Assembly (NCBI GenBank): GCA_030141605.1
Contig: JAQGDQ010000051.1
Location: 496,001 to 560,000, forward strand
Source: Tubiluchus corallicola
Taxonomy: Eukaryota; Animalia; Priapulida
Reading direction: 5' to 3'
DNA: 64,000 nt
The notes under the pieces are model-generated. The model was not told where the DNA came from. It saw only the letters and a program-made list of their open reading frames with translations, and made no database searches. Numbering within the stretch: position 1 is the stretch's first letter; the number at the start of each line of letters is the position of its first letter. A program made the translations under genes and the position numbers. Positions 29,299-62,733 of the stretch are shown here, one piece after another.

Positions 29299-29349
29299 AT
29301 TTGTATTATTTATGTTCTTTTTATAATTTTATTTGCTTTTAAATCACAG

Positions 29350-36239: not shown

Positions 36240-36309
36240 ATATAAATTAAAGCATCAGATAAGAATTAAGTAAATATCTCAATGATCACACTAATTGCTT
36301 CTACTATGG

Positions 36310-41058: not shown

Positions 41059-41466
41059 TAATTTATGTAAGTGAATTAACAAAAGAAGAAAATAAAAAAT
41101 TGCATAAATCTGTTTATTTACACTAAAAATTACAGAGATTCGTGCAAGGTCGGATGCTATATTTCTCCAAAAAGAAGTTGGTTTATAAAGTTCTCATTCT
41201 GATAAGAAGGGTGTAGATTTGTTGCAGTATGCTGCACATATTCACGCAAAACACCTAGTCACCTAGTGCTAGACATGCCTGTGCAACAGTTGGTGGTGCC
41301 CCGTGAAAAGCAGAGGGAGCTTCAAAAGTAAACTGCTGGGCAAATGATTAAATTTAGCTTTGAGAAACAAGGAGGTTAATTGCAGTAAACGAACAGGTGA
41401 CAGGTTCAAGCAAAACTGCTATGCTAGCATATTAGTGCGCGATAAATGCACCTGCTTAAAAACAAA

Positions 41467-41593
41467 ATGTATTGTATTATCACTATCAACTGCTAGCTCA
41501 GTTTAGTGTCAAAATGTAACTTTTTATTGCTGTGAAAAGTTTTTTGTTTATATATTTTAATGTTAGAAAATTTTGCAAACGATGCTGCCTTAG
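41467..41593 (+). pseudogene. Duplicated acceptor and first 8 codons of exon 16
   Basis: Matches 42352-42479: TGTTAG|AAA ATT TTG CAA ACG ATG CTG CCT TAG. Confidence 0.9.
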
Positions 41594-42456
41594 GGTCTAA
41601 ATTTTGATAGCCAATTAAAGCGAGTTATTTTAAAAAAGGATAACAAAATTATTAAAACTGCACTGACAAGTATTAAATTCGGTTGTTCAACACGTTGAAT
41701 ATGTATAGCTTCGTCCTGAAAAAAAGTTCCCCAAATTAACTTGTAATCCATCATCTTGGTAGAAGCATTTGTAAAAGATACCCACGTTGTTGTGTAGCCC
41801 AGTTTCTCCTTTTTTCAAACAGCTATAAATTTTCTTCTATGATCTCCAGTCCCTAGGGTGCTGCTAAAATAATCTTTCTACATGATTTTCCCCAAATCAG
41901 CATAAAATGCTGATTTTTAGACGTTTTTTGTCACTGTTGTAGAAAAACATTTTACTTTCAATTGGTTGGGGTATTGGGAAAAAAATTGTACCTTTTCAGA
42001 AAGAGGTGAACTAGGGCTACACAACGATGGATGTGATTCATCCCCCCCCCCCAACCATATAAGCAATGCTTGAAATGCCACATAATGTAAGCGTTAGCCA
42101 GTAGGTAGCATGTACAAGCAAAGTTGTTCATTCTCCATAAAAAATGCAACAGTTAAAATTGAATTGAAGTGCAAGAAGTATCTCTAGTGGCGCTTTCAAG
42201 AAGAGGTTCGTAACCAAAACATTTGTTGAATTGATCTTTATTATGTCTTGTAATTTCTAATGCGGTAATCCTTCATTATTAGCTCATAATAAACATCTGC
42301 AGAAGTCTGGCGAGTCATTAAAGGCGCAGCGTACCAGAAAATCTCTGTCATATGTATTGTTTTATCTCTGTCAGCTGCTAGCTCATTTTAGTGTCAAGAT
42401 GTAATTTTTTTCATTATTGCCGTGAAAAGTTTGTTGTTTATAAATTCTAATTTTAG

Positions 42457-42642
42457 AAAATTTTGCAAACGATGCTGCCCACTAGTGATGAGAAGCAGAA
42501 GATACTAGAAGCGCAAGTTGAAAATCCAGATGTGCCACTAGGATCTGCTGAGCAGTTCATTCTTATTCTTTCTTCAATCACGGAACTTGAAGCTCGGCTG
42601 CGATTATGGCTTTTCAAGCTTGACTATGAGAATGCAGAGAAG
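42457..42642 (+). CDS. FHOD: FHOD coding exon 16 (FH2)
   Basis: Acceptor TTTTAG; [34 protein letters not shown]...[11 protein letters not shown]; donor GTTTGC; phase 0/0. Confidence 0.92.
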
Positions 42643-43369
42643 GTTTGCTTTTACAGTAGGCACTGCTTAATAGACTGACTTTGGGACAAAAGCATTTTGA
42701 CCCAATTAATCGACTGAATTTATTATCTGACTGGTATAGCATTACTACTATAGAAGTATGAGTCATCACTTGTCAGCCTAGCATGAAATGTAAAGGCTTT
42801 GAACGAATTTTACAAATGAATTAATGTCAGAATTCCTATACTCTAGGAGTGGCCCATACCACATCTCTTTGAATCAATTCTAGGTGACCAATTCTATTAA
42901 CTGTTAGTCTAATAAACGACACCCACTGTATATATCTTTTGCGAAAAGCATACACACTAATTCGAAATTTCAGAATTTAAAATAGAAAGATTAGGCATAT
43001 GTGAATAGAATCGGATTAACATGTCAAATGTGTTCTTATGATAGATAAATAGTTAATTTGTTAAAAATGCCGCAATAACCAGCAAATTTTTTATCATTTT
43101 CTATTAAAAATAACAGTGTTTCTACGACAGGCATCATGTTCTACTCTGTAATGGAAACGATTAATCTTTTGTTGATTGTTGTGGGATATTTAATAAATTG
43201 GTTTATTAAGAATTTAAAAACACAAGATGAGCACTTCTAGCATAAGCATCATCGCAGAGTTACATAACATGATGTACGTACCATGCGACCATATTTTGCA
43301 TTTTTACCTTTTCTTGATAATTTTTGAACCTGGCAACAGTTTACTCAGATTCAACATGGTGAACTTGGT

Positions 43370-43760
43370 AAGACTTGGTAATCAAACAAGCAATTTTACT
43401 TTGGAATTCTCTACCATTACAGGTTAAACAAATCAAGTCCCTATCAGCATTTAAAACAAAATTAAAATCACTAATATTAACCAGATATGAAATACCATCA
43501 CACCAGTACGACAACATACACACTAATTCAGAATTCATATACCCACGGCCATATTAATTAAATCATAGTTTTTTTTATTTTTTTGTGTATGGTTGTAAAT
43601 ATGTTTGATTTTATTCGTCATTACTGCACAGTAGTTTAGATTGCACTGACGCATTTGCCTTCAGCAGTGTAAGTTTTTATTAACTAACACTGATTGATTA
43701 TCTCTGTAAAGTTTTTATCAGTGATTATCAATGTTTTTAATGGCAAATAAAGATTATTGA
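43370..43760 (+). mobile_element. CR1/L2-like LINE 3' end
   Basis: LWNSLPLQVKQIKSLSAFKTKLK, then a T-rich tail with AATAAA at ~43746. Confidence 0.65.
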
Positions 43761-43925
43761 CTTTTAGAAAAAAGGTGCCCCTAGAATTTTATAGTAGCAC
43801 CTTTTCAGGATTTTCTTCTAGCCTATTGTCAACATACGTTATCAAGCCTGCATTTTCTGAAAGTTATTGACTATAAACTGAATCAAATGTTTTGGAAATA
43901 AATATAACTCCCTTGGTATTTGCAG

Positions 43926-44045
43926 GATGTAGGCGAGCCACTAATGGATCTGAAATTGGGCATGGAGGAATTGCGAAAAAATAGAACATTCAAACTTGTC
44001 TTATCTACATTGTTGTGCGTTGGAAATTTTCTCAATGGATCTCGG
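43926..44045 (+). CDS. FHOD: FHOD coding exon 17 (FH2)
   Basis: Acceptor TTTGCAG; [40 protein letters not shown]; donor GTAATC; phase 0/0. Confidence 0.92.
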
Positions 44046-44199
44046 GTAATCATATATTTGTTTGCATCTTCATATGATGTTTAAACTTGGGATCATTGTG
44101 TAAGGCAACCTTATTTTATAGTGCTAGGTAAGGCTATGGTAGCTTAAGTTAGTTGTTGGAAAAGCTGCTACCTATGTGAAGCAATGTTTTATACGTCTT

Positions 44200-44630
44200 T
44201 GAGTAAATACGTATAACTCGTATACCTCCGGACCGTAAAATTTGTTCGAGTTATGCGAGAGTACGAGTTAAACAATGTTCGCAAGATAACAAGATTGAAA
44301 CACTCATCAATGTCAGACAATACACTGCAGCCTGTGAAAATGATCATTTTTGCTGAAACTAGCAGTTGAGAATGTAATGTGGTGCACACTTTCGCCTAGA
44401 ATTTCTCGCTTGGCAGGTTGGTCAAGATGGGCAGGGTATTGTCACTTAGATTCTTGTAAATTGTACCGGAAATTCGTACAGAAATTGTACCGATAATTTG
44501 AGTTGCAGATTTCGAGTTACGCAATGTTTGGTAAATAGAAAAATGAAAGGGAAATTCCTTTCCATGAGAGCTGTTCTAGATATACAGGAATTCGAGTTAT
44601 AACGCGTTGAGTTATATGTAGTTTACTGTA
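44200..44630. mobile_element. pogo/Tigger-like MITE
   Basis: The right end GAGTTATATGTAGTTTACTGTA is inversely similar to the left end GAGTAAATACGTATAACTCG; TTCGAGTTA motifs recur internally. Confidence 0.5.
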
Positions 44631-46703
44631 TTTCAAGTTAAACTTATTGGTGGCAGAACTTTCTGTAGGTAATAGCAAAATATTTAAATACTGAATTTCT
44701 TGTTTTAAGCAAAACCGTTATTAAAACATTATTAAACAAATTGCAGTTAGTGGAAGTAATTATTTTCTTCAAAAAAATGTTGGAACAATCTTCCCTAAGT
44801 AAATTTCAGCTGACAAACTTTGTATCTGTGAACAAAAATCGTTATAATGACAATCTGAAACAAATGTTATGACTCACCTCGTCTCCTAATAAGCTTTGTT
44901 TACTACAATTTTTGTGTACTTCTTGTTTGCATGACATCACTTATTTATGAAAAGTTATGTAGTAAAATGTTAAAATTATCAAAAATAAATCAAATGTTCC
45001 AAAACCAGTGACACTAAGCTCACTTTTACATCAAATTTGTACACCTGCCAATTTTTCAGCTTATGTTACTAATGCATTACATTATGATATCATAGTTTTG
45101 GCCTTTCCACATGGTAAGTACACAAAAAAATTAATGTTCGAAAGTTCTGCTTAAATTTTTTAATTTAGACAGCAAAAATGTCATGGTGATAAACTTGTCA
45201 CTTGGCAATCTCTGACTATCTGGATAAATACCAACAACCATGATATCATAGTTCACACAAATTTGTAATGGTAAACCACGAATTCTGCAAGTTTTGAAAC
45301 AACTGACATTTGGGCAATGGCATTTACAATCATTAGCATATCCGTTTGCAAGCCATGAACTCTACACCTTGCACCTTTTGCACCTTTTTATGTCGGTAGT
45401 TAATGCAATGTATTTATAGGTAGTTGCCGTTGTCTGTTTCTGTGATGCAACATTATTATTATTAATGCCCATTTCAGTCCATCACAAGTCGTTATTACAT
45501 TGAGGAATGTAATAACAATTGGTCTCAAAGTCTGGTAATGTTATTTAAAATAGCTTTCCAATTGGAAGCAATTATTTAACCGTTTTCTATATTAAAACTT
45601 GTAAATGTTTAAGGTCATGGTTAAATGAAATTTCTTAACCTTTCTTACTGTATATAGTCGTGTAAATTTCATTCTGAATATGATTGAAACTAGGTGAATC
45701 ACCAGCCATTAAGTCGTTAATTAGCTAGAAACTTAATTCATGAATTAGGACTACGTCAACAGGTTCAGGAAGTATTTCCCTGTGAAGACCAGCTATGATG
45801 TGGTGAAAAACACGTAAATGGTTTTTCCCTAATTTACACTGTGCACAAATAAACTAATATGCATTGAAGTGTGTAAAATGTCATTATACTAATTATGTTG
45901 TTTTTTGCAGATAAATGCACTAGTTCATATGCCATATAATATCATTTTAATAATCATTGTACAGCATGATGTTCTAATTCAGTGTTGGTTGCTTTTATTT
46001 TATTAAACTTTCCAGACCTTCCCTTTTAGAGAAACAAATGCAAATAATTTTCAGTTTATGCTCTCAATATTTATTATAAAACAAAATGCAGGAACCACTC
46101 ATCAAGTTTTTTAATGTTGCTGATTTAATTTATTTAGCATGAGGATAAAGTTCTGGACAAATGTAATATGCCTTGATACATCTGCATTAATTATTATTAG
46201 TAAATTTCTGACCTAGTGGCTGACCCTGATAAAATTACGCATTGTTCTTTCACCATGTTCACCACTCAAGTCAATAATCACTTGTGTACTATTCTAACCA
46301 TTACTATATGTTTAGTATATATTTATACACTGTGATCATAATTTTTCTAGAAGTTCTGTAAGAATGAAGATATTGCCAGTGACATTGACAATCATGAACA
46401 TTATCCTAAAATATAGGAAACATAATTAGCATAGAAACTAAAATATTTTTATATGTATTAACATATAAATAAACCAATTTCCACAATAATCAGTACAACT
46501 ACAAATTTGTTAAGGAAACACACGTTATTTATACCACGCAACCACACTTGGAGTCAGGGGGTACCTGATGGAGAAACACTTTTTAGTCGAAGTTAGAACA
46601 AACAGCACCCTTTAAGTACTATAATAGTTACAGCAATATAATAGTAATGCAATGGTAAATATATAGCATTTTTGTATGTTAAAAATAATTATTTACTTTA
46701 TAG

Positions 46704-46865
46704 AATCGTGGCTTTCAGTACGAGTATTTGGTAAAAGTTCCAGAAGTCAAAGATACAGTTCATAAACAAACTCTTCTTCATCATGTTTGTAGCTTGGTAA
46801 TGGAGAGGTTCCCAGATACAACAGACATATATTCAGACTTTGGACCAATTGTCCGATGTTCAAAG
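46704..46865 (+). CDS. FHOD: FHOD coding exon 18 (FH2)
   Basis: Acceptor TTATAG; NRGFQYEYLVKVPEVKDTVHKQTLLHHVC...PIVRCSK; donor GTATCT; phase 0/0. Confidence 0.92.
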
Positions 46866-47041
46866 GTATCTTGCATGAACTCACACTATTCTTATTACTT
46901 TGTCTTATATTATATGACAACATATTTCATTTAAAGTAGATGGATGCGCTAGTTAAATAAACCCGAAAAATTACGTAACTTTTAAATGAATAAAATTTGC
47001 TTTGGCCTGTTCAGAAGCACAGTAATTGTAATTTTTATTAG

Positions 47042-47160
47042 GTTGATTTTGATGAATTGTCTACGAATTTGGAAAAGATGGAGCATGATTGTAAGGATTC
47101 ATGGGAGCACCTAAGGGTGATTGCAAAACATGAAGTAGCTAATTCTCAAATGAAGCAAAA
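47042..47160 (+). CDS. FHOD: FHOD coding exon 19 (FH2)
   Basis: Acceptor TTATTAG; VDFDELSTNLEKMEHDCKDSWEHLRVIAKHEVANSQMKQ; donor GTAAGT; phase 0/2. Confidence 0.92.
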
Positions 47161-47932
47161 GTAAGTAATTTTAGAGAAATTGTCATCTTACTTTTTATTT
47201 TTTTTGTAAGAAGTCCTTTAGTAATAAACTACAAATAGTTAAGGAAGTAAAACTTTACAGCAAGTCAGCGACCCACATTGACATGTATAATTCCACACAC
47301 AATACAATCAAATAAAATAATTTAAAACAAAATTAATTAATTGAAAAATACATTTTAGGTGGATTTGAGTTTCACCTTTTCTTCCCATATTGCATGTACC
47401 ATGTTGCTTACCAGTTTGCTGTTCATATGAAACTTATCATGTTATAGCCATTTCATCCCAGTTTCGTCAGTATCATTCCTTTTCATTTTTTACAATCTTT
47501 AGCTTTTTTATTCTCTTCTACTTACATGACTTAATTACACCCTTTTTTACTGCCATGCCAGCCCTTTTCATAGCACATCTTTTTTATCCTGCCCCTAACA
47601 TTTAACAATACACCAGCTGAAGCTGTTCTGTATTAGTTGTTCATTAATTAATTGCTCACTTGATATGTACTTGTAGTAAATTTGTTTTTAGTTTGTGTAA
47701 TTTGTTTTTAGTTTGTGTAATTGTATGTAATATATTTATGTGTGTAATTGTAATGGTGTTTTTATTTAATAAACATATAAATAAACTGAAAAAATCAATA
47801 TTCATAATTCTGTGTAATATTGAAACAAGTGTACACCAACTAGCCAACATACAGATTAAGCATTTCAGTATTAGAACTGCTACATAAGAATGTATACTGT
47901 TCGTCTGTTGTTAGGTTTATAAAATAAGGATA

Positions 47933-48750
47933 TACAGGGTGTCTCAAATGTCACTATACACTTTGATTTCTAATTTTTTTCAAGTTTTCTCCAGTCTCGA
48001 CAAGCTCTTACATGATTCAAAAGGGCCTTTGACAATTATTATTATTATTTATTGTTTGACTGGACAACAGGCTGTGTGGCAACGACAGGAGTGTTAGAAT
48101 TGAGGTGCAAAATCAACTGGGCATGAAATCCTTCGATCACTAACTGAAGTTCAGTAGAAACTCAGAGTACCACACTGTTTTCTCACATTTAACAATGCAG
48201 TTTTTCAACAAGATACAGCTTTTCCTCAGCACTCATGAGCTGTAAGAGACTTTCTCAATGCAAGATGCCTGACTTGCCATTGCCGACTAAAGCTCTTGAG
48301 ATGCCTGAAAATGGTAGTAAAAGTAGCAAATCCTACTAGTGCTGTAGTTCTTTCCAGATTTTTGAGGAACTTGACTAAAAGAATTACCCAAGGTTTTAGT
48401 TCATCTGTACCCATTTTCAAACATATTACTTTGATTGTTAAAAAAATATAGAAAATGTAAAGTGTGACACTTATGACTCTGTGTAGCAATGATAGTTTAA
48501 AAGTATTTAGCTCTAACATTGGTATGTTCGAAATGTTTGTGAAGTGAATTCTAACACCTTTTGGTGAACAGTTCATGACAAATAGTTTTCAGGTGCATAA
48601 TTAATACCTTCCATTGATGTTTTTGGTCGACTTCATTTCACTGATATTCGATGTCCAAACTGCGGGCCTTCTTCTTAAATTTACATTTAATTGATTTGAG
48701 TACAATATAATGCCACAATGGCAAGCTAATGCGTACACACCTGTAATGCG
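47933..48750 (-). mobile_element. Probable Tc1/mariner-like remnant
   Basis: TA-CAGGGTGTCTCAAA terminus at 47933; degenerate transposase-like minus-strand coding. Weak support. Confidence 0.4.
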
Positions 48751-49236
48751 AACTTGCAAAAAAGAACGAACTTTCATCATTTATTTAACTAGTATAACAG
48801 TATTGAATAAAATGTACTTGGTGATTGTGTATTGTGGATTATGTGACGGACATATTGTATGCATTACTATGTATTTTTAAGTTTTTATTACATACCTTAT
48901 CTTTGCCAGCTTTCTACAAATTCATTTACAGTTAAATTTAACCAGTCATTCCTAGTGGTGCAAAAAATTGTTATGCTTGCAGCATGTATCATTGTTAACG
49001 TATCTTTTCAAAGGGCTATCTTGTCTACTAGCTGTTTAAAATCCACAAGTCACTAAGCTGGTTTACATACGTATCCTGACAGTGCACTCCTGAGATATTA
49101 CACCAAGTGATGAACTCTTCAGAAACCTTTCATACAAGGGACAAATAGAAATTTTGTGCAAACAAAATTGACTGACCTTTTGAATCTCATTGACTTTACT
49201 GAACATGTCACACTGATCTGTTCTTTGCAGCATGAC

Positions 49237-49619
49237 CTCTGCTGTTCCTATTGCTGACCACTCTGTTGTTCCTCTTGCTCACCACTCTACTGTTTCTCTT
49301 GCTCACCACTCTGCTGTTCCTCTTGCTCACCATTCTGGTGTTCCTCTTGCTCACCACTCAACTGTTTCTCTTGCTGACCACTCTGCTGTTCCTCTTGCTC
49401 ACCATTCTGCTGTTCCTCTTGCTCAACACTCTGCTGTTCTTATTGCTCAACACTCTGATGCTCCTCTTCTTCAACACTCTGCTGTTCCTCTGGCTCAGCA
49501 CTCTGTTGTTCCTCTTGCTCAACACTCTGATGCTCCTCTTGCTCAACACTCTGATGCTCCTCTTGTTCAACACTCTGCTGTTCCTCTTGCTCAACACTCT
49601 GCCGTTCCTCTTGCTCACA
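49237..49619. repeat. 24-bp minisatellite, ~16 copies
   Basis: Unit CTCTGCTGTTCCTCTTGCTCA(C/A)CA; stop-free in several frames. Confidence 0.95.
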
Positions 49620-49932
49620 TGGAAAAAATAACAGAGCTGATGGCCTTATGTCAGAATTCCTACAAATTAAAAGAGACGGGGTTTCGAAATTTAGTTCACT
49701 GTTACCGTATAAGAGAGTTTTTAGTGATCTTTTCACCAAAATCTGAAATGATTACTAGTAAATTTTCTGAAAATTAATTAAATGGTTGAATTTTATAAGG
49801 AATGATTGTGTTCTCACAGTGTGATAAATTATAGTTTACCATTAAGTGAAGCATCAGAATGTTAAAATATTGTATAGGTTTTGCAACAGCTAACAAGTTA
49901 ACATTTTTCTTTCATTGTGGTCTTTTTAACAG

Positions 49933-50007
49933 GATGCTAGATTTCCTTACAGACTGTGCTGAGCGAATAATGGTTCTAAAGATTGTACACAGACGAGTTG
50001 TGAACAG
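49933..50007 (+). CDS. FHOD: FHOD coding exon 20 (FH2)
   Basis: Acceptor TAACAG; MLDFLTDCAERIMVLKIVHRRVVN; donor GTAACT; phase 2/2. Confidence 0.92.
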
Positions 50008-50383
50008 GTAACTTATATATGTCTTTGTGTTCTAAGGTTTTCTTGACAATGTAACATTATTTAATTACCTCATTTAGAAATAATATTTGTTAAGCTTTTA
50101 GTGTCTAGCAACTTCTGTTTTTTCAATAATACATTTAATGTAATCCCGATAAGGTACCTAAAATTTTTACATTAAATAAAATCAGCAGTTCTTTTTATTT
50201 TTATTATCATTAATTAACTTTTATAGGTATAGCTAATTTAGAATCAGCTAAGGCATCTCTTAATTCTCATGCACTTTACAGTAAAGTGCTACAATATTTC
50301 ATAAAAGACAATCACTAATATAAAAACATCCCAAATCTGAATTTGTAAAAGGTTTTGACAGTGTCAGCTGCATTTTTTTGCAG

Positions 50384-50576
50384 GTATCACAAACTATTGC
50401 TTTGGTTAGGATTACCTTTGGCATCTGCAAAAGAACAGAAAATTAATAGTTTCTGCAAAGTTTTAAGTGAATTTGCACTTGAGTATCGTACAACAAAAGA
50501 ACGAGTCCAGCTACAACAGCAAAAAAAGAAAGCCTACAAAGAACGCAAATTAACAAGAGGCAAACTAATAACAGAA
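50384..50576 (+). CDS. FHOD: FHOD coding exon 21 (FH2 end)
   Basis: Acceptor TTTTGCAG; YHKLLLWLG...FCKVLSEFALEYRTTKERV...KLTRGKLITE; donor GTATGT; phase 2/0. Confidence 0.92.
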
Positions 50577-50629
50577 GTATGTTTCAAAGATTTTCTATTG
50601 GTGGTTATTATTCAGGCTCTGTTATAACG

Positions 50630-50795
50630 AATTCAGATAAAAAGTCACGGGTAAAAAAGTCAGGGAAAAAACCACAGGAAAAAATAGCCCTACCTGTAAC
50701 CCCTAACCTTAATCCTAGCCCTAACCCTAGCCAAAATTGATTGTGACTTTTGCTATCCAAAATTGACTTTTTCCTGTGGCTTTATTATCACTGAG
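50630..50795. repeat. Small MITE-like element with an internal CCCTAA-type tract
   Basis: Arms AAAGTCA/ACCACAGGAAAAA and TGACTTT/TTTTTCCTGTGG flank CCCTAACCTTAATCCTAGCCCTAACCCTAG. Confidence 0.55.
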
Positions 50796-51268
50796 CATTA
50801 TAACAGTGCAGCAGTTTGTAGTTGAAAACTTGCATTATTGTTTGATAAAAATATAATAAATGACTTTTGTGTTAGCTTCTTTATCTGTATTTTGCAATCT
50901 ACCTATTGTGTTTAGTCTAAGTGCCATCCGTAAATACCAAGATCAGTAGGCTTACAAGCAAAATATCATAAAATAGTTTTTACTTGCAATCTACATTTAT
51001 TGTTTTTAGATAATCTATTAGAAGTATGCTCTAGTATTTTCAGTTTTGGTTGGAGTCTCAATAAACTTTGAGTTACGATACTGTTTTATTATAAATCACC
51101 AGTAAAAGCTAAATAACTCAGCAACATTGAAACTTCATGTTGAATAAGTTTTGTTGAATTAAACTGACAGTTATGTCTGTTGTTATTACAAACTGACAGT
51201 ACTAACAGTTTTTACAAATTTTGTATACTAGTTTGCATAACATGTAAAGCATTATATTTAATTTTTAG

Positions 51269-51401
51269 ACTTCTAAATTCAAAGTGATGAGCAATGGATC
51301 AGAGAAAACAGAAACAGTTACAGATAACAGCAAGCTAAATGAACTGCTCAACCAAGGTTATGGCTCAGACTTAGATAGTGGATGTGCAAAGACTATTTCT
51401 C
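51269..51401 (+). CDS. FHOD: FHOD coding exon 22
   Basis: Acceptor TTTTTAG; TSKFKVMSNGSEKTETVTDNSKLNELLNQGYGSDLDSGCAKTIS; donor GTATGT; phase 0/1. An alternative same-phase donor CAAG|GTTATG at 51356 cannot be excluded. Confidence 0.75.
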
Positions 51402-52158
51402 GTATGTATGAAAACGCTTTAAAAATTCACGAGTAGCATTAGGCCCCCAAATAGTTGTTTGCAATTGCCGACCAAATGCACCATTTTATGTGCTAGTATA
51501 TTAATCTTTTTACGTTGATAATAATAATTTTTTTATTTGCGTACAACAATCCGTTCGATAACAGGTTCACTTTTTATACAGCCGCTTCTATTATGCAAAC
51601 AAAATGACTAGCAGCCGCTCAGACAAACATATTTGTAATTTGATACCCCCATTTACTGTAGCTACCAGACACCAATGCAGCCTTCACACTGTGATTTATA
51701 ATGAAACAATCTGACAATATTGTAAAACATCAGTCCAAAGACTGAACATACACAATTAGTTATATGCATTGTGATTTTATTACTGTATATTTTATTTGGG
51801 CCACCTATGTCAAAAAGAAGACAAATCGTTTTCACTATTGATCGTAATGTAGAAATTCTGAATTTCTGTAAAAGTAAAGCCTCTTACCAATGAGTTTGGG
51901 ACTTGGCACAGTTTATATCTGGCACTTTTCAAGTCACCTGATTAACAAAGTCCAACAAGCAGAACATGCTGAGATAAGGAACACAAGAAACTAATTCAAA
52001 ACTTTTATAGAGCAAAAACTCTTGTGAGTTCGTATGTTGTAGTACAGCTTATTCGGTACAAATTCACCTTGTAAGATAGGCCTATTTACAAAAAAAATTG
52101 TAGTAAATGTAAAAATTAAAGATATAAAAAATAAAACAATCAAAAACAAAGTTATCTA

Positions 52159-52460
52159 ATGGAGCATATTGTGGACCCTGTCGAAGCTGTCCTGATGAGA
52201 ACATTGAACATGTTATCAGAACTAAAGAGCTTATCGTATGGAAATCAGTTAAAACATATCGGTTTAACTAAATTAGCTTTGAGACCATTGTGTGGCCAGT
52301 TAATTGATGTTTACAAATATGTGTTTGGGGTTTATAGCCGTGACGATGATTGTCTCCTGTTAAATTGGAAGTACATCGTACAGCAAGGTCCTATTTTTCA
52401 TAAATCAAGAACAGTACACCAAACCGATAAATACGACTTTTTTCTTTTACAATGCCACAT
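52159..52460 (+). mobile_element. CR1-like LINE 3' fragment
   Basis: ELKSLSYGNQLKHIGLTKLALRPLCGQLIDVYKYV resembles the CR1 motif LSYEERL..L.L..L..RR.RGDLI..YK. Confidence 0.6.
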
Positions 52461-52501
52461 ATCATTTCTTTTACAATAACAAGGATGTTTGATTTTATAT
52501 A

Positions 52502-53125
52502 TGTGTGCTTGCATAGTAAAATCGTCCATAAGACGACAATTAAGCTTTTCTGGTTATTCACATAACCCGAATCTCCATTTCACGTGGATAATTTTTATAT
52601 AAAGATAATTGCTCTATTATTTCTAAGCTGAGATAAATCCACGTTGAAGTCGAAGGGCACGGTGCGTACTGAAAAACATAATCTTGAGAAAATCGCTATT
52701 AAAGTTAGACATGTTTTCTGTCGCGTTTCTACAAAACACAAAGCAACCGCACAGATGTTGGTTGCTATGGACTTTGCAAGAGTACACTGAAGTTATGTTT
52801 AAATCCAGTAGATGGCTCTCCCTGACGAAGAACTGCACTTGGCAACAGCAAAAACCCGAAGCAAAATGACTGTTGCAATTGTGGTTGGTGCTCAAACATA
52901 ATCTAAAGAAACACTTGCAAAGTAAATCAGCATTCATCATTTTAATCCAACGGCTGTAGTACAGTCACATGATCATGACGTCATATACTATATATCGTAA
53001 AAATGACAGCTTCCAGGAGCTACTATCAGAGTTTGAAAATAGGAGTTTTTTTTACAATTGCAGTACTAGTTTCTAGACAGAAAAGTGGGTAAGGAGTTAT
53101 AAAAGTAAATTTTTAGTGTTTCTTG
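52502..53125 (-). mobile_element. Same MITE family, inverted copy C (one end truncated)
   Basis: Reverse complement of ~26170-26769. The chance ORFs 26331-26648(+) and 52623-52940(-) differ at only 3 of 105 residues. Confidence 0.85.
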
Positions 53126-54089
53126 AACACTTTCTTGATTTTTGTGTTGATGATAAATTAATGTATGTGGAATTTGTCGTAATTACAGTAGAAGAACTAT
53201 TTATCTCAAAAGTTATATTTATAACTACTGGAGATAACTATAACTACTATATGGTTTCTGTTGGTCTGAAAACCAGGGAGTTTACTTTTTCCTTTATGAC
53301 ACTTCTGCAAAGATAAACCCGAGAACATGAACTGGATTACCTGAATTGGTTGTAGAATACACTTGTATGTTTGTCTTCAAGCAAGATTGTCACCAACATA
53401 ATTATTTGTGACTGTAGATACTCATTATTAAAGCTATTAGAGCTTTATCTTGCTCATTATGATATTTATGGTGATTACATGAGATGAACTGTATTATTAA
53501 ATTATATTGGTATAATAAGATATGTCGGCCTATTTCATTAGAATGGTAAACGACATAGCCACATTTTAGTAAGAGAGATTTGTACATGATATGATAAATA
53601 TATATTTGCTCAAAAGCACATTATGATATAAGTGTATACAATACTACGTGATATAGCAATAGATCATACTTAGCAACGTGCACCTAGCATATCCTCAACA
53701 ATGAGACTCCAGGAGATAACATAGCGCTTGGTGGGCTACTATGTTAACTCAACTTAAACATAAGTTAGACATAACTTTAAGTAGATTTCTGAGGAAGCCT
53801 ATTAAAAATAGAATAATTAGTTTATTAAATGGGTAATTAGGCAGAATGCCAAATCCTACTTTCTATAGGCTTATTCAGAAAAATATTGCATGTTCATTAA
53901 TGAACCTGTTTGCTGGGGCAGATTCAGGCAACCAGGGTAAATACGTATAAACACTCTGCCTCAAGATATGCTTACACCGGCATGTTTCCCGACAGCAGAT
54001 GTGGCCTGCCATGAAATAAGTCTTATGAGAACTTAATGAATGATAAAGTATAGGACTAAAACACTAAGTGAGATGCAATTTTATTTTGT

Positions 54090-55240
54090 TAAACATGAGT
54101 CACACTATACAGTTTACATGAAAGACATGGAGTCATATAATGGAGGAGTAGCTTTGCTTGTGTGAAAAACAATTAAAAGTGTACGTGTGTCTACGAACAA
54201 TGAAACGGAAGTAGTAGCTGTCGATTTTATCAACAGTGCTCCATCAAGACTCGTTTGTTGTTACTGTTCACCACCAGCTGACATTGTGTATATTAACAAA
54301 CTCTGTGACACTAAAAGCTCTCTGCAGAATGTACATTATCCTACTATTGTGCTTGGCTATTTTAATTTGCCACTTTTTGAGTGGACCAGTTTTACTTATC
54401 CTGTCTCAGCCACGTATGAAAAGTTTGCCAATTGTATTCTTGAAAATAGATTAACTCAGTGTGTGCAAGGTTCTACGTGTAATGACAACATATTGGACTG
54501 TGCATTTCATAACATCTGATGGTAATCAAAGTCTCAGTCTAGCTTTGGAAATTCTTGCAGAATGGGCCAACAAATGGCAGCTTACTTTTGCAGCTCATAA
54601 GTGTGTACTCATTCACATAGGACGTAGTAATTCCCATTTTCAGTACGTGTTAAACGACACGCCTTTGCCGGTGAATACTAATTGTAGAGACTTGGGTGTT
54701 ACTGTGTGTTAAGACCTAAAATTTTTAATTTACTGTACTGAGCAGGTTGCCAAAGCTTTTGAAGTAGCAAATATGGTTTTTGTTGATTTGCTACGAAAAA
54801 CATTGACGCTCTTTTAACATTATATAAGTCATTCGTTGGACCTTTGTTGGAATATTGCACTCCTGTTATAGATCTAAGTTTTCTTACCTATATGGCTAGT
54901 CTCTGATTAAGGGGTCATAGTTACAAGTTGTACAAAAATTATTGTCGTATTGATATTTTTAAACACTTTTTTGCAAACAGGGTGATCGATATGTGAAACA
55001 ATTTACCGTTGGTGATTATTACTGCTAACAACTTACATTCTTTTTTCATTAAACTACTTACATTTGATTTTAATCCTTTTTGTAAATTTAATAGAAATAG
55101 CTATAACTAATGTGAGCCACTGTAAGTGCTTTCATGCCTGATGGCTTTCTCCCTTCCTAAAACATTAGCTAATCATATTTATTTGCAGGATTTTATTGTA
55201 TATGTGCAATTGTATATTTGGATTGAATAAATCTAATCTG
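54090..55240 (+). mobile_element. Internally deleted CR1-like LINE (endonuclease joined to post-RT region and 3' end)
   Basis: GGVALL, IVLGYFNLP (GDFNLP) and NILD, then directly EWANKWQLTFAAHKC, RDLGV, LYKSFVGPLLEYC, RGHSYKL and FFANRVID; tail AATAAATCTAATCT. Confidence 0.8.
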
Positions 55241-55411
55241 AAAGTGTTTCTGAGAATGTGTTCTTAAAATTTGTATTTGTTAGTCTTAAAAATGATTCCA
55301 ATTAAACATGGCAAAACCAGATAAAACGTGTTCTTGTTTGTGTGGTTTCAAATTATTTATCACATTAAAAGCGTTATACTGTTTGTTATTTATTTGATTT
55401 GTTTAATAAAG

Positions 55412-55570
55412 GGCGAAGCCATAGTCCACGTCGTGAAGAAACGCCAGTGCCAGATGTAAATGGTGATGATGAAATACTAGAATCACTCGTCAAGTCAGCA
55501 ACAACTCAACCCAATACACGGGCAGCTCCACGTGAACGTAAGCGTGCTAGACAAGGAACGAGAAAATCAT
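55412..55570 (+). CDS. FHOD: FHOD coding exon 23 (DAD core and basic region)
   Basis: RSHSPRREETPVPDVNGDDEILESLVKSATTQPNTRAAPRERKRARQGTRKS; donor CAT|GTAAGT; acceptor is an AAG; phase 1/1. Confidence 0.85.
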
Positions 55571-58500
55571 GTAAGTTTTCTACGTGAACGCAAGCGTGCT
55601 AGACGAGGAAAGAGAAAATCATGTAAGTTTTCTACGTGAACGCAAGCGTGCTAGACAAGGAACGAGAAAATCATGTAAGTTTTCTATGTGAACGTAAGTG
55701 TGCTAGACAAGGAACGAGAAAATCATGTAAGTTTTCTACGTGAACGCAAGCGTGCTAGACAAGGAACGAGAAAATCATGTAAGTTTTCTACGTGAACGCA
55801 AGCATGCTAGACAAGGAACGAGAAAATCATGTAAGTTTTCTGCGTGAACGCAAGCGTGCTAGACAAGGAACGAGAAAATCATGTAAGTTTTCTGCGTGAA
55901 CACAAGCGTGCTAGACAAGGAACGAGAAAATCATGTAAGTTTTCTATGTGAACGCAAGCGTGCTAGACAAGCAACGAGAAAATCATGTAAGTTTTCTATG
56001 TGAACGTAAGCGTGCTAGACAAGGAACGAGGAAATCATGTAAGTTTTCTATGTGAACGCAAGCGTGCTAGACAAGGAACGAGAAAATCATGTAAGTTTTC
56101 TACGTGAACGCAAGCGTGCTAGACAAGGAACGAGAAAATCATGTAAGTTTTCTGCGTGAACGCAAGCGTGCTAGACAAGGAACGAGAAAATCATGTAAGT
56201 TTTCTACGTGAACGCAAGCGTGCTAGACAAGGAACGAGAAAATCATGTAAGTTTTCTACGTGAACGCAAGCGTGCTAGACAAGGAACGAGAAAATCATGT
56301 AAGTTTTCTACGTGAACGCAAGCGTGCTAGACAAGGAACGAGAAAATCATGTAAGTTTTCTACGTGAACGCAAGCGTGCTAGACAAGGAACGAGAAAATC
56401 ATGTAAGTTTTCTACGTGAACGCAAGCGTGCTAGACAAGGAACGAGAAAATCATGTAAGTTTTCTACGTGAACGCAAGCGTGCTAGACAAGGAACGAGAA
56501 AATCATGTAAGTTTTCTATGTGAACGCAAGCGTGCTAGACAAGGAACGAGAAAATCATGTAAGTTTTCTACGTGAACGCAAGCGTGCTAGACGAGGAAAG
56601 AGAAAATCATGTAAGTTTTCTACGTGAACGCAAGCGTGCTAGACAAGGAACGAGAAAATCATGTAAGTTTTCTATGTGAACGTAAGTGTGCTAGACAAGG
56701 AACGAGAAAATCATGTAAGTTTTCTACGTGAACGTAAGTGTGCTAGACAAGGAACGAGAAAATCATGTAAGTTGTCTACGTGAACGTAAGTGTGCTAGAC
56801 AAGGAACGAGAAAATCATGTAAGTTGTCTACGTGAACGCAAGCGTGCTAGACAAGGAACGAGAAAATCATGTAAGTTTTCTACGTGAACGCAAGCGTGCT
56901 AGACAAGGAACGAGAAAATCATGTAAGTTTTCTACGTGAACGTAAGTGTGCTAGACAAGGAACGAGAAAATCATGTAAGTTTTCTATGTGAACGCAAGCG
57001 TGCTAGACAAGGAAAGAGAAAATCATGTAAGTTTTCTCCGTGAACGCAAGCGTGCTAGACAAGGAATGAGAAAATCATGTAAGTTTTCTATGTGAACGCA
57101 TGCATGCTAGACAAGGAAAGAGAAAATCATGTAAGTTTTCTATGTGAACGTAAGTGTGCTAGACAAGGAACGAGAAAATCATGTAAGTTTTCTATGTGAA
57201 CGTAAGTGTGCTAGACAAGGAACGAGAAAATCATGTAAGTTTTCTACGTGAACGCAAGCGTGCTAGACAAGGAACGAGAAAATCATGTAAGTTTTCTGCG
57301 TGAACGCAAGCGTGCTAGACAAGGAACGAGAAAATCATGTAAGTTTTCTATGTGAACGTAAGCGTGCTAGACAAGGAACGAGGAAATCATGTAAGTTTTC
57401 TATGTGAACGCAAGCGTGCTAGACAAGGAACGAGAAAATCATGTAAGTTTTCTACGTGAACGCAAGCGTGCTAGACAAGGAACGAGAAAATCATGTAAGT
57501 TTTCTGCGTGAACGCAAGCGTGCTAGACAAGGAACGAGAAAATCATGTAAGTTTTCTACGTGAACGCAAGCGTGCTAGACAAGGAACGAGAAAATCATGT
57601 AAGTTTTCTGCGTGAACGCAAGCGTGCTAGACAAGGAACGAGAAAATCATGTAAGTTTTCTGCGTGAACGCAAGCGTGCTAGACAAGCAACGAGAAAATC
57701 ATGTAAGTTTTCTATGTGAACGTAAGCGTGCTAGACAAGGAACGAGGAAATCATGTAAGTTTTCTATGTGAACGCAAGCGTGCTAGACAAGGAACGAGAA
57801 AATCATGTAAGTTTTCTACGTGAACGCAAGCGTGCTAGACAAGGAACGAGAAAATCATGTAAGTTTTCTGCGTGAACGCAAGCGTGCTAGACAAGGAACG
57901 AGAAAATCATGTAAGTTTTCTACGTGAACGCAAGCGTGCTAGACAAGGAACGAGAAAATCATGTAAGTTTTCTATGTGAACGTAAGTGTGCTAGACAAGG
58001 AACGAGAAAATCATGTAAGTTTTCTACGTGAACGCAAGCGTGCTAGACAAGGAACGAGAAAATCATGTAAGTTTTCTACGTGAACGCAAGCGTGCTAGAC
58101 GAGGAAAGAGAAAATCATGTAAGTTTTCTACGTGAACGCAAGCGTGCTAGACAAGGAACGAGAAAATCATGTAAGTTTTCTATGTGAACGTAAGTGTGCT
58201 AGACAAGGAACGAGAAAATCATGTAAGTTTTCTACGTGAACGTAAGTGTGCTAGACAAGGAACGAGAAAATCATGTAAGTTGTCTACGTGAACGTAAGTG
58301 TGCTAGACAAGGAACGAGAAAATCATGTAAGTTGTCTACGTGAACGCAAGCGTGCTAGACAAGGAACGAGAAAATCATGTAAGTTTTCTACGTGAACGCA
58401 AGCGTGCTAGACAAGGAACGAGAAAATCATGTAAGTTTTCTACGTGAACGTAAGCGTGCTAGACAAGGAACGAGAAAATCGTGTAAGTTTTCTACGTGAA

Positions 58501-60639
58501 CGCAAGCGTGCTAGACAAGGAACGAGAAAATCATGTAAGTTTTCTACGTGAACGCAAGCGTGCTAGACAAGGAACGAGAAAATCATGTAAGTTTTCTACG
58601 TGAACACAAGCGTGCTAGACAAGGAACGAGAAAATCATGTAAGTTTTCTCCGTGAACGCAAGCGTGCTAGACAAGGAACGAGAAAATCATGTAAGTTTTC
58701 TATGTGAATGCAAGCGTGCTAGACAAGGAAAGAGAAAATCATGTAAGTTTTCTATCTGAACGTAAGCGTGCTAGACAAGGAACGAGAAAATCATGTAAGT
58801 TTTCTACGTGAACGCAAGCGTGCTAGACAAGGAACGAGAAAATCATGTAAGTTTTCTACGTGAACGTAAGTGTGCTAGACAAGGAACGAGAAAATCATGT
58901 AAGTTTTCTACTGAACGTGAACGCAAGCGTGCTAGACAAGGAACGAGAAAATCATGTAAGTTTTCTATGTGAACGCAAGCGTGCTAGACAAGGAACGAGA
59001 AAATCATGTAAGTTTTCTATGTGAACGCAAGCGTGCTAGACAAGGAACGAGAAAATCATGTAAGTTTTCTACGTGAACGCAAGCGTGCTAGACAAGGAAC
59101 GAGAAAATCATGTAAGTTTTCTATGTGAACGCAAGCGTGCTAGACAAGGAAAGAGAAAATCATGTAAGTTTTCTCCGTGAACGCAAGCGTGCTAGACAAG
59201 GAATGAGAAAATCATGTAAGTTTTCTATGTGAACGCAAGCGTGCTAGACGAGGAAAGAGAAAATCATGTAAGTTTTCTACGTGAACGCAAGCGTGCTAGA
59301 CAAGGAACGAGAAAATCATGTAAGTTTTCTATGTGAACGTAAGTGTGCTAGACAAGGAACGAGAAAATCATGTAAGTTTTCTACGTGAACGTAAGTGTGC
59401 TAGACAAGGAACGAGAAAATCATGTAAGTTGTCTACGTGAACGTAAGTGTGCTAGACAAGGAACGAGAAAATCATGTAAGTTGTCTACGTGAACGCAAGC
59501 GTGCTAGACAAGGAACGAGAAAATCATGTAAGTTTTCTACGTGAACGCAAGCGTGCTAGACAAGGAACGAGAAAATCATGTAAGTTTTCTACGTGAACGT
59601 AAGCGTGCTAGACAAGGAACGAGAAAATCGTGTAAGTTTTCTACGTGAACGCAAGCGTGCTAGACAAGGAACGAGAAAATCATGTATGTTTTCTACGTGA
59701 ACGCAAGCGTGCTAGACAAGGAACGAGAAAATCATGTAAGTTTTCTACGTGAACACAAGCGTGCTAGACAAGGAACGAGAAAATCATGTAAGTTTTCTCC
59801 GTGAACGCAAGCGTGCTAGACAAGGAACGAGAAAATCATGTAAGTTTTCTATGTGAATGCAAGCGTGCTAGACAAGGAAAGAGAAAATCATGTAAGTTTT
59901 CTATCTGAACGTAAGCGTGCTAGACAAGGAACGAGAAAATCATGTAAGTTTTCTACGTGAACGCAAGCGTGCTAGACAAGGAACGAGAAAATCATGTAAG
60001 TTTTCTACGTGAACGTAAGTGTGCTAGACAAGGAACGAGAAAATCATGTAAGTTCTCTACGTGAACGTGAACGTAAGCGTGCTAGACAAGGAACGAGAAA
60101 ATCATGTAAGTTTTCTATGTGAACGCAAGTGTGCTAGACAAGGAACGAGAAAATCATGTAAGTTTTCTATGTGAACGCAAGCGTGCTAGACAAGGAACGA
60201 GAAAATCATGTAAGTTTTCTACGTGAACGCAAGCGTGCTAGACAAGGAACGAGAAAATCATGTAAGTTTTCTATGTGAACGCAAGCGTGCTAGACAAGGA
60301 AAGAGAAAATCATGTAAGTTTTCTCCGTGAACGCAAGCGTGCTAGACAAGGAATGAGAAAATCATGTAAGTTTTCTATGTGAACGCATGCGTGCTAGACA
60401 AGGAAAGAGAAAATCATGTAAGTTTTCTATGTGAACGTAAGTGTGCTAGACAAGGAACGAGAAAATCATGTAAGTTTTCTATGTGAACGTAAGTGTGCTA
60501 GACAAGGAACGAGAAAATCATGTAAGTTTTCTACGTGAACGCAAGCGTGCTAGACAAGGAACGAGAAAATCATGTAAGTTTTCTATGTGAATGCAAGCGT
60601 GCTAGACAAGGAATGACAAAAGTTACGTAAGTTTTCCAC
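55531..60639 (+). repeat. 52-bp tandem array, ~98 copies, derived from the exon 23 / intron 23 junction
   Basis: Unit CGTGAACGCAAGCGTGCTAGACAAGGAACGAGAAAATCAT|GTAAGTTTTCTA. The first copy is the real exon end and donor. Confidence 0.98.
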
Positions 60640-61324
60640 ATCACCACTTGAATGTAGTCATGTTAGATTATGATCAAGAAAGTCCTAACTTCTCCATGTT
60701 AATACAAGGCATTGTAGACTGGGAACATGGCTTTTTCACTTGACTGTAAGTGTGCTAGAAACAGTCAGGTGAAACAGACATTTTAGAAAGGAAATAAGGA
60801 AGTCACAAATTTTTTTTCATGCAGTCTGTATTACATTGCAGAAATTAGTAAAACTGTGAAACAGAAATTTCTTTTATAAGATGTCATTGTGAGAAAACAA
60901 AAGAATTTTGAATCAACCACATGCCAAGTTTGTGCAAAAAAATAAACAATAAGTAAGTATGTAAGTAAGTAAGTGACTGAGTTTATTTTATAATAACCAT
61001 TTATTATAACAAGATAAGTAACTAAAAAATTACAATATTATACAGCATTCAATGACATTAGAAAAGTGTACGAATGGTTATTGAATTGAGTGTTGAAAGG
61101 ATGGTAAAAGAACTGTGAGTATCGAAATCAGTCACTCCCCGAAACGTAGCAAATAATAATTAATTAATGCACATGTATTTAGAAATGTAACATTATAAGA
61201 TTTTGCACTTAAGACTATTGTTGGTTAAATTATGACATAAAAGTTTTAGTTTTTAGTGGACAAAAAGTGTGTACAGCAATGTTCAATCATGGGAAAGAAA
61301 AGAAAAGACAAGTGTGACTAATTT

Positions 61325-61660
61325 TGAATATTAAGTTAAGTTTTGATTAGTTTTTGCATTTAAAATGATTATTATTCTTGTGACCTTAAAAAAATTTGGG
61401 TTGTAGTCTGTAAATATGGGCATAAATACATGAATGCGTATTTTATATGAGCAATAATGTCTTAGCATAGCTACCTGGAAGCAGAAACTCGTGGGTTCGA
61501 ATCTCAGTGCAGCTACAAGATTTTTCTGACATTCTAATTTAAAGGAAAGGACAATCACTTTGTATATCGTGTTTATTTTACTATTATCACTTAATAGAAA
61601 AACATAACAAAAAAATTTGCACGTAAACTTTCTGTAAAGCACAAAATTAATTTATATTAC
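61325..61660 (+). mobile_element. Dispersed repeat with a tRNA-derived core (SINE-like), copy 1
   Basis: AGCATAGCTACCTGGAAGCAG...GGGTTCGAATCTC is a B-box with a decayed tRNA-like 3' half; second copy at 63140-63460. Confidence 0.55.
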
Positions 61661-62028
61661 TGCTGAATAGAAATTTTCAGCACTGTTATATCCGCCATTT
61701 ACTTGAAAATTATGACATAACTGGCAGACTTCGTGACTTTCGTAAATGCATCATAGCTTTCCTTAAGCGCACGTTGCTTAAAAAAATTCAAATTCAAATT
61801 GACAGTGCCCTGCTTTAAAGTGATTTTTGTAATTATACAAAATGCTTACCACACTTTTATTACTAATTCTTCTTAACATTTTTCGTGAATATTGAAGTAA
61901 GCCTCTTCCCTTTTGTGTCCATATATGTATATGATTTTACAACTTCAGACCATTGGTTACATATCACATTTCAGTTTGTGCAAACAATGGATGCAGCCCA
62001 ATTTACATCTATTTTTTGGTTGTTTCAG

Positions 62029-62096
62029 TGAGACGGACATTGAAAACTGGACTTGATGCTGAAGAAGAAAGGTTTATCAACATGCTTTCATCTTAA
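62029..62096 (+). CDS. FHOD: FHOD terminal coding exon 24
   Basis: Acceptor TGTTTCAG; LRRTLKTGLDAEEERFINMLSS*. It completes the FHOD motif RKS-LRRTLK across the junction. Confidence 0.9.
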
Positions 62097-62474
62097 TTAT
62101 TTGTTTCTGGGCCATTCAGATGTTTTCGCATTTTTAGATGCATATGATAATCAACATAATTATTACAATTATTCTTATTAATAGTTACCAAACTACAGGA
62201 AATGAAATTAGCTGTTCAAGTAGCATAATAGGAATATACACTATAATCTGCAACTTATTATGTCTTAACTAATGCAGCAACATGGGCCTACCTACAAGTG
62301 TGATAAGTTTAACACGTGTTTATGGCAGCTATTATAATCATCTAATAATCTTGTTGTTATAAAATCAATCATGCAGTTGTAATACTGTACTATTTCATTA
62401 AATTAATGTATGTGCTACTATGTGTGCCTTTCAAATTAGCCTGTTGCCCCAATTGCAGGAATACCTGTAATTGC

Positions 62475-62480
62475 AATAAA
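62475..62480 (+). promoter_or_regulatory. Candidate polyadenylation signal of FHOD
   Basis: First AATAAA I see after the stop codon, followed by T-rich sequence. Another AATAAA lies near 62554. Confidence 0.4.
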
Positions 62481-62733
62481 TGATTCTTATTTTTTCCTTT
62501 ATTACACAACCACATTATTTATACTGATGGTCACCGTTGTATTTACTTTGAAAAATAAATTTTTTGAACTGAGGTTTTTTCACATTAGAATAGTGTGTAT
62601 TGTGCTGAAAAAAGTGCAAATATGAAGAAAGGCTAAATAAAATTGTAGTGGCATTGGTGATGCCTGCCACATGGCATGCGTCTGACAATGTATGTTGTCT
62701 GACAAAAGTAAGTTTTATTAGATACTGTAACGT

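What the first reader, a model, noticed from the sequence alone, without database searches (positions are those of the whole stretch)
55531..60639. Satellite made of ~98 copies of the gene's own 5' splice site, placed within the autoinhibitory C-terminus
Seen: the 52-bp unit is the last 40 nt of exon 23 (RERKRARQGTRKS) plus GTAAGTTTTCTA, and nearly every copy keeps CAT|GTAAGT in the same local context as the real donor. Only donor 1 (55570) gives RKS-LRRTLKTGL. Any later donor reads through to TGA at 55585-55587, giving ...RKSCKFST*. Established: this basic DAD region contributes to FHOD autoinhibition and carries the ROCK phosphorylation sites in vertebrate FHOD1; stops more than ~50 nt upstream of the last junction usually trigger NMD. 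Inference: donor 2 (stop 35 nt upstream of the junction) could yield a stable truncated, possibly deregulated formin, while donors 3-98 could yield NMD substrates. The array could therefore act as a copy-number-dependent splicing or expression rheostat, or as a dense U1 snRNP binding platform. It could equally be a neutral expansion ignored by exon definition.
Basis: partly seen in the sequence, partly recalled or inferred. Interest (0 to 1): 0.85.

Follow-up and report, generated by a model that had tools for sequence, protein, structure and literature searches.

The report
Splice-donor minisatellite in FHOD's last intron
A 52-base piece spanning the end of the second-to-last exon of an actin-regulating formin gene (FHOD) and its splice signal is repeated 98 times into the last intron; the same arrangement is known from human and lancelet genes and occurs in at least three other genes of this genome, so it is likely an ordinary repeat in which the cell uses the first signal.

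Summary
In detail: 98 copies of a 52-bp unit (last 40 nt of the penultimate FHOD exon plus GTAAGTTTTCTA), 96 of 97 regular copies with intact GTAAGT. Any later donor reads into TGA 55585-55587. Read-derived contigs of two samples hold the unit at high depth, so it is not an assembly artefact.

It is a new member of a known kind: junction-spanning minisatellites (human F7, CBS, IFI6; amphioxus 'mirages'). This scan has noted the kind in at least 24 genomes, some far larger.

Against a rheostat:
- donor positions are no more conserved than the rest of the unit;
- variation is CpG-driven and mostly missense;
- a 5-bp microhomology flanks the array in register;
- NFAT5, Smoothened and an SLC1 transporter in this genome carry such arrays, and a rough null model expects hundreds;
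- the spliced poly(A) contig found uses donor 1.

That contig is from a diverged sample that may lack the array, so leakage is untested. One tension remains: these donors are strong and 52 nt apart, where HeLa data predict use of the downstream site. Verdict: real, likely neutral, low interest.

The parts
5769..62572 (+). FHOD-subfamily formin gene (20 exons mapped; the 29.4-38.1 kb stretch not resolved)
   Evidence: tblastn with FHOD3 proteins and P0035; one match in G000 for the FH2 exon
55412..55570 (+). Penultimate exon, 159 nt; encodes the DAD core (ILESLV) and the first part of the polybasic region RERKRARQGTRKS
   Evidence: sequence
55527..60639 (+). 52-bp minisatellite, 98 units, each the last 40 nt of the exon plus 12 nt of intron
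55568..55576 (+). Donor 1, CAT|GTAAGT, the authentic 5' splice site
   Evidence: spliced contig in X5; P0035 ends RKSLRRTLKTGL
55585..55587 (+). In-frame TGA reached if any later donor is used (RKSCKFST*)
55620..55628 (+). Donor 2 (pseudo-donor), 35 nt after the stop; use not shown
60586..60639 (+). Diverged terminal (98th) unit with TAC|GTAAGT at 60627
55527..55531 (+). Left microhomology arm TCCAC
   Evidence: only two TCCAC in 55501-60700
60635..60639 (+). Right microhomology arm TCCAC, in register with the left arm (5108 = 98x52 + 12 inserted bases)
62029..62572 (+). Last exon: T|TG completes Leu, RRTLKTGL...MLSS, stop 62094-62096, AATAAA 62554-62559, poly(A) after 62572

Best explanation
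This is a 98-copy minisatellite whose first unit spans the last splice donor of the FHOD gene; it likely arose as a microhomology-mediated duplication, expanded neutrally, and is likely spliced out whole because the first donor is used. Shown: the array, its exon-intron anatomy, the flanking TCCAC arms in register, the diverged end copy, the CpG-led variation, and a donor-1 mRNA in a diverged sample of the same species label. Inferred: (1) a 52-nt segment between two TCCAC arms was duplicated, which leaves the exon and first donor intact; (2) unequal exchange or slippage expanded and homogenised it; (3) U1 at donor 1 is committed with the upstream acceptor (159-nt exon) long before the 3' acceptor 6.4 kb away is transcribed; (4) any leakage goes mainly to donors 2-3 and is tolerated noise, with donor 3 onward likely cleared by NMD.
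For: No selection on donors: donor 9-mer 2 of 9 positions variable versus 14 of 43 (p=0.70). CpG positions 7 of 8 variable versus 9 of 44 (p=0.0006). 11 of 14 variants in the exon-derived part would be missense. TCCAC arms in register fit MTD (PMC13167724 passages). X5 holds an 842-nt contig: unique exon sequence, one unit's exon part, GT..AG joint to 62029, poly(A); no X5 or X6 contig lay on the intronic part of the units. P0035, 98% identical over the exon, ends RKSLRRTLKTGL. Of 19 donor-motif loci fetched from G000, 3 are homology-confirmed donor-spanning arrays with further exons downstream: NFAT5 29 bp x43, Smoothened 42 bp x4.9, SLC1 54 bp x19. A rough null gives about 190-1650 such arrays genome-wide (donor number assumed). 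In F7 only the first donor is used and the number of repeats did not change the choice; amphioxus mirages do not disturb splicing.
Against: No RNA from a sample known to carry the array was seen. X5 differs at 59 letters and 36 gap positions over the 544-nt last exon and may lack the array; contigs also drop rare or NMD-cleared forms. Duplicated strong donors 45 nt or more apart give about 100% intron-proximal use in HeLa (PMC3413131 passages); these are 52 nt apart and near-consensus, whereas the F7 sites are weak and 37 nt apart, and perfect pseudo-sites did compete in F7. CBS and IFI6 use two extra sites. The conservation test has low power (19 variant alleles, related copies). The array is the largest of the 30 arrays in my two samples.
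Confidence: 0.8

Rival explanations
1. Leaky ladder with a passive cost: donors 2 and later are used at a substantial rate, giving a stable RKSCKFST* isoform (donor 2) and NMD substrates (donor 3 onward). FHOD output falls with copy number, without selection for it.
For: Strong, identical donors 52 nt apart; intron-proximal preference at 45 nt or more in HeLa. CBS and IFI6 use the next two pseudo-sites. The donor-2 stop is 35 nt from the junction, under the 50-nt EJC limit. Donor 2 and 3 exons (211, 263 nt) are of usable size.
Against: Only the donor-1 product was seen. F7 copy number did not change splicing. The SLC1 gene keeps 19 perfect CAG|GTAAGT donors mostly 54 nt apart with an immediate stop, and intact flanking exons.
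Confidence: 0.12
2. Selected regulatory device: the array is kept to make a truncated, less autoinhibited FHOD or to tune FHOD level.
For: The intron splits the extended polybasic region, where single charge reversals at R1128, R1135 or R1139 activate human FHOD1. A donor-2 product would lose RRTLK and the T1141-equivalent site.
Against: No excess conservation of the donor. Same anatomy in unrelated genes of the genome. The donor-2 tail places Lys at the R1139 position. No AATAAA or ATTAAA lies in the array for U1 to mask.
Confidence: 0.05
3. The array is an assembly artefact, or its length is much inflated.
For: No laid contig spans the array, so the copy number of 98 rests on the assembly alone. 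X1, X2 and possibly X3 may come from the animal that was assembled.
Against: The bin holding the first two units has summed depth 42522 against about 180-230 single-copy in X1, 536 against about 9 in X2, and 313 against 2-37 in X3, a different sample and study code (not a copy number). There are 25 unit types in non-periodic order, two internal insertions and a diverged end copy.
Confidence: 0.03

Closest known systems
Human F7 IVS7 37-bp VNTR (Borensztajn et al. 2006, PMC1557585; parts 1, 3 and 4 of 6 read)
   Same: First monomer spans the exon-intron boundary; identical pseudo-donors follow; the first donor is used.
   Different: F7 has 5-9 copies of a weak donor 37 nt apart with 4 exonic bases; here 98 copies of a near-consensus donor 52 nt apart with 40 exonic bases, in the last intron.
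Human CBS IVS13, IFI6 (6-16) intron 2, LMNB2 and PDGF junction minisatellites (as described in the introduction of PMC1557585; primary papers not read)
   Same: 10-25 reiterated donors in a minisatellite.
   Different: CBS and IFI6 also use the next two pseudo-sites; not shown here. Copy number here is about 4-10 times higher.
Amphioxus 'mirages' in Adh3 and globins BflGb6/BflGb9 (PMC3087553; passages read)
   Same: Invertebrate tandem duplications of exon-intron boundaries, recurrent in one genome, concerted evolution with boundary copies excluded, no disturbance of splicing reported.
   Different: The globin cases have 2-6 units of 150-160 bp; length instability is shown there and not tested here.
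Microhomology-mediated tandem duplication (PMC13167724; passages read)
   Same: A segment flanked by short identical arms, duplicated and then expanded; mostly neutral.
   Different: Internal junctions here read TCTAC, not TCCAC, so one substitution before expansion must be assumed.
Splicing-associated tandem repeats, spl-TRs (PMC10078293; listing and passages)
   Same: A tandem repeat at a splice site that could alter splicing.
   Different: spl-TRs are defined by a repeat-dosage to splicing association, which could not be tested.

Membership tests
Junction-spanning minisatellite (F7/CBS type, 'mirage') | Head-to-tail array of a 10-160 bp unit | tested here: met
   52 bp x 98.0, 95% matches
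Junction-spanning minisatellite (F7/CBS type, 'mirage') | First monomer spans a real exon-intron boundary | tested here: met
   FHOD homology; spliced joint; P0035
Junction-spanning minisatellite (F7/CBS type, 'mirage') | Donor sequence reiterated intact in the intron | tested here: met
   GTAAGT in 96 of 97 regular copies
Junction-spanning minisatellite (F7/CBS type, 'mirage') | First donor (at most the next two) is used | tested here: inconclusive
   Donor-1 mRNA in X5, but X5 is diverged and not shown to carry the array
Junction-spanning minisatellite (F7/CBS type, 'mirage') | Concerted evolution, boundary copy excluded | tested here: met
   Diverged 98th unit; repeated 7-unit blocks, reached by 11 of 300 shuffles, so modest support
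Junction-spanning minisatellite (F7/CBS type, 'mirage') | Length polymorphism between alleles | not testable with these tools
   Only collapsed contigs were available
Regulated splicing/NMD switch or spl-TR | Alternative donor used in mRNA | tested here: inconclusive
   None seen in X5 or X6 contigs; contigs show presence, not absence
Regulated splicing/NMD switch or spl-TR | Selective conservation of the alternative donor | tested here: not met
   p=0.65-1.0 in four comparisons; low power
Regulated splicing/NMD switch or spl-TR | Premature stop placed to trigger or escape NMD | tested here: met
   35 nt (donor 2), 87 nt and more (donor 3 onward); 50-nt rule from PMC6173133 passages, not known for this animal
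Regulated splicing/NMD switch or spl-TR | Copy number associated with splicing or expression | not testable with these tools
   No paired genotype and RNA data
Microhomology-mediated tandem duplication | Short identical arms flanking the duplicated segment in register | tested here: met
   TCCAC at 55527 and 60635; no chance control run, and array ends are partly defined by where similarity stops
FHOD formin subfamily (host gene) | FH3/FH1/FH2 plus DAD core and extended polybasic region | tested here: met
   DAD layout per PMC12858348

The most novel reading that the evidence does not exclude
The 97 extra strong donors form a copy-number-dependent ladder: donor 2 makes a stable FHOD that ends RKSCKFST and lacks the last part of the autoinhibitory basic region, later donors drain transcripts into NMD, and array length tunes formin activity. 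A milder version is that this genome, with likely hundreds of strong-donor ladders spaced above 45 nt, is a natural test of first-donor commitment against the mammalian downstream-site rule.
Probability: 0.07. Interest if true: 0.7.

Novelty: new member of a known kind. Interest (0 to 1): 0.2.

Why it matters
As it most likely stands it matters little: one more, fairly large, junction-spanning minisatellite. Its practical value is as a test substrate. Two published rules for choosing among duplicated 5' splice sites disagree (most upstream site, PMC1557585; downstream site when sites are strong and 45 nt or more apart, PMC3413131), and this array and its siblings in the genome fall where they conflict. 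If leakage were regulated, it would be a repeat-length control on formin autoinhibition.

Tried and rejected
- No RNA holder on record was listed for the stretch. X6 covered upstream exons but not 55471-55640 or the last exon; this is no evidence either way.
- Genome-wide enrichment of donor-bearing arrays over reversed controls: GTAAGT x3 gave 20091 versus 21087 (microsatellite-dominated); AGGTAAGT x3 1994 versus 116; MAGGTAAGTT x3 184 versus 2; MAGGTAAGTA x3 78 versus 8. Rejected as evidence, because dispersed repeat families carrying the motif dominate the lists and the counts are units, not loci.
- A donor-versus-acceptor asymmetry: the acceptor pattern gave 156 versus 30. Of 15 loci fetched (from the first 100 matches), 3 had a plausible exon after the array, none confirmed by homology of that exon. 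Acceptor arrays seem to exist too, so no asymmetry is claimed.
- Of 19 donor-motif loci fetched, 11 showed no exon and 5 only a plausible one (L039, L059, L081, L084, L086). The label 'phosducin-like' for L039 is recalled; Pfam and PDB gave no hit.
- Recursive splicing or intron gain: no AG directly before the GT in the unit.
- A coding role for the array: the longest stop-free stretch is 57 codons.
- U1 pairing energy does not separate donors 1, 2 and 97 (-5.5 kcal/mol each; the U1 motif is recalled).
- No structure or complex prediction was run.
- Taxon not resolved: best named FHOD hits were gastropods at 75-77%; earlier scan notes say likely priapulid, not tested.
- No supplements were read.
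Full report
Observation. TRF finds a 52-bp array at 55530-60636 with 98.0 copies and 95% matches. I count 97 regular donors from 55571 to 60574 and a diverged 98th at 60627. The unit is the last 40 nt of a 159-nt exon (55412-55570) plus GTAAGTTTTCTA; 96 of 97 copies keep GTAAGT and 94 of 97 keep CATGTAAGT. A DNA search of G000 found it only here (a lower bound).

Host gene. It is an FHOD formin. tblastn with vertebrate FHOD3 maps 19 exons from 5766 to 62093, and P0035 adds one at about 51270-51400. I did not resolve 29.4-38.1 kb, so the numbering 'exon 23' is unverified. One FH2 exon has a single match in G000. The intron interrupts the extended polybasic DAD region. In human FHOD1, charge reversal at R1128, R1135 or R1139 releases autoinhibition (PMC12858348, parts 1-2 of 6). 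Mapping those positions through the rat FHOD3 spacing (my inference), a donor-2 product keeps the DAD core and the R1128 and R1135 equivalents, has Lys at the R1139 position and loses RRTLK. Deregulation is possible but not certain.

Is it real? In read-derived contigs the bin with the first two units has summed depth 42522 against about 180-230 for single-copy pieces in X1, 536 against about 9 in X2 (same sample), and 313 against 2-37 in X3, another sample and study code. These are not copy numbers, no contig spans the array, and the runs may include the assembled animal. With 25 unit types and internal insertions, an artefact is unlikely.

Which donor is used? Run X5, listed as DNA but behaving as RNA here, holds an 842-nt contig at depth 277. 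It has 243 loose letters ending in the unique exon sequence, then one unit's exon part, a GT..AG joint to 62029, the last exon to 62572 and poly(A). That is donor 1. No X5 or X6 contig lay on the intronic part of the units. P0035, a Logan protein 98% identical over the exon, ends RKSLRRTLKTGLDAEEERFINMLSS; it may not be independent of X5. The limit is serious: X5 differs at 59 letters and 36 gap positions in the last exon, may not carry the array, and contigs drop rare forms.

Selection. There are 19 variant alleles at 16 of 52 positions. The donor 9-mer has 2 of 9 variable positions against 14 of 43 elsewhere (p=0.70), and GTAAGT 1 of 6 against 15 of 46 (p=0.65). CpG positions have 7 of 8 against 9 of 44 (p=0.0006), and 11 of 14 variants in the exon-derived part would be missense. 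This looks like unconstrained, probably methylated DNA (inferred). The test has low power. Repeated blocks of 7 units occur, reached by 11 of 300 shuffles.

Origin. TCCAC stands at 55527 and 60635, the only two in 55501-60700, exactly 98 units plus 12 inserted bases apart; internal junctions mostly read TCTAC. This fits microhomology-mediated tandem duplication followed by expansion (PMC13167724, passages). Such a duplication leaves the exon and first donor intact.

It is not special to FHOD. Pattern searches of G000 gave 19 donor-motif loci that I fetched and read. Three are donor-spanning arrays at homology-confirmed exons with further exons downstream: NFAT5 (29 bp x43), Smoothened (42 bp x4.9) and an SLC1/SDF transporter (54 bp x19, with 19 CAG|GTAAGT donors and an immediate stop). 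Five more have a plausible exon and eleven have none. Array density was 13 in 364 kb around the window and 17 in 132 kb from 14 other contigs. With an assumed 100,000-200,000 donors, random placement gives about 190-1650 donor-spanning arrays. I make no enrichment claim, because the pattern counts are confounded by dispersed repeat families. The FHOD array is the largest of those 30 sampled arrays, but motif-selected arrays reach 43-67 copies.

Comparison with what is known. PMC1557585 (parts 1, 3, 4 of 6) describes the class. F7 IVS7 uses only the first donor, regardless of repeat number; CBS and IFI6 also use two further sites; LMNB2 and PDGF use only the authentic one. PMC3087553 (passages) describes amphioxus mirages that do not disturb splicing and exclude boundary copies from homogenisation, as here. 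Earlier notes of this scan list 48 findings with these words in at least 24 genomes, including arrays of about 405 and over 1,300 copies (unchecked AI notes, not used as evidence).

Against my reading. [quoted passage not shown] The FHOD donors are near-consensus and 52 nt apart, so F7 is an imperfect model. The EJC 50-nt rule (PMC6173133, passages) is not established for this animal. A donor-2 mRNA would have a 579-nt 3' UTR against the native 476 nt.

Verdict. A real, fairly large junction-spanning minisatellite; a new member of a known kind; likely neutral with donor 1 dominant (0.8). Substantial unselected leakage 0.12, a selected rheostat 0.05, artefact 0.03. Interest 0.2.

Noticed in passing
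window 40798-41041 and 41467-41589: Displaced copies of both ends of the FH2 exon at 42458-42642 lie in the intron before it: the exon's 3' end with its donor region (92% over 247 nt, with an in-frame stop) and the acceptor with the exon start (87% over 128 nt). A second boundary duplication in the same gene.
   Followed up: partly
window 55539 (unit 1, position -32): The coding unit has a synonymous T shared with 26 other units, while no difference was listed for X5's exon against unit 97, which has C (14 rows were not shown). This may mean sequence exchange between array and coding exon; the array's common R-to-C variants are absent from unit 1.
   Followed up: partly
L080:2431-3453 + (G000 C677): SLC1/SDF transporter exon followed by a 54-bp x19 array with 19 perfect CAG|GTAAGT donors and an immediate stop.
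   Followed up: partly
L040:2953-4205 - (G000 C24): NFAT5 Rel-homology exon followed by a 29-bp x43 donor-spanning array; at least five other arrays lie in the same 7 kb.
   Followed up: partly
L061:4099-4304 + (G000 C34): Smoothened cysteine-rich-domain exon with a 42-bp x4.9 donor array; donor 2 would add 14 residues in frame.
   Followed up: partly
L039:2022-3618 - (G000 C5): 33-bp x48.5 array after a short acidic exon (phosducin-like by recall, no database hit); units carry AG|GTAAGT, so each is both acceptor-like and donor-like.
   Followed up: partly
L089:2129-2620 +, L090 (- strand), L095:2106-3411 +: Three arrays that appear to span a splice acceptor (63, 55 and 59 bp units); L089 lies just before an eIF2B-epsilon-like LbH ORF (E 3.7e-8, below cut-off).
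   Followed up: partly
G000 C16, C18, C40, C100; C549, C604, C738, C896, C933, C944, C992, C1024: Two dispersed minisatellite families (21/42-bp and 15-bp units) carry AGGTAAGT in their units; where read (L041, L062, L063) no exon precedes them, and they are likely transposon-borne.
   Followed up: partly
window 442-1221 +: Integrase-like ORF pieces interrupted by a stop, upstream of the FHOD start; judged by eye only.
   Followed up: no
window 20740-21175, 49237-49617, 62733-63118; 26307-26648 and 52623-52964: Other minisatellites (28 bp x15.6, 24 bp x15.9, 195 bp x2) and two copies of a very high-copy dispersed element.
   Followed up: no
window 33872-35038 +: A 388-codon open frame in the unresolved middle of the FHOD gene; possibly a large alternative exon.
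   Followed up: no
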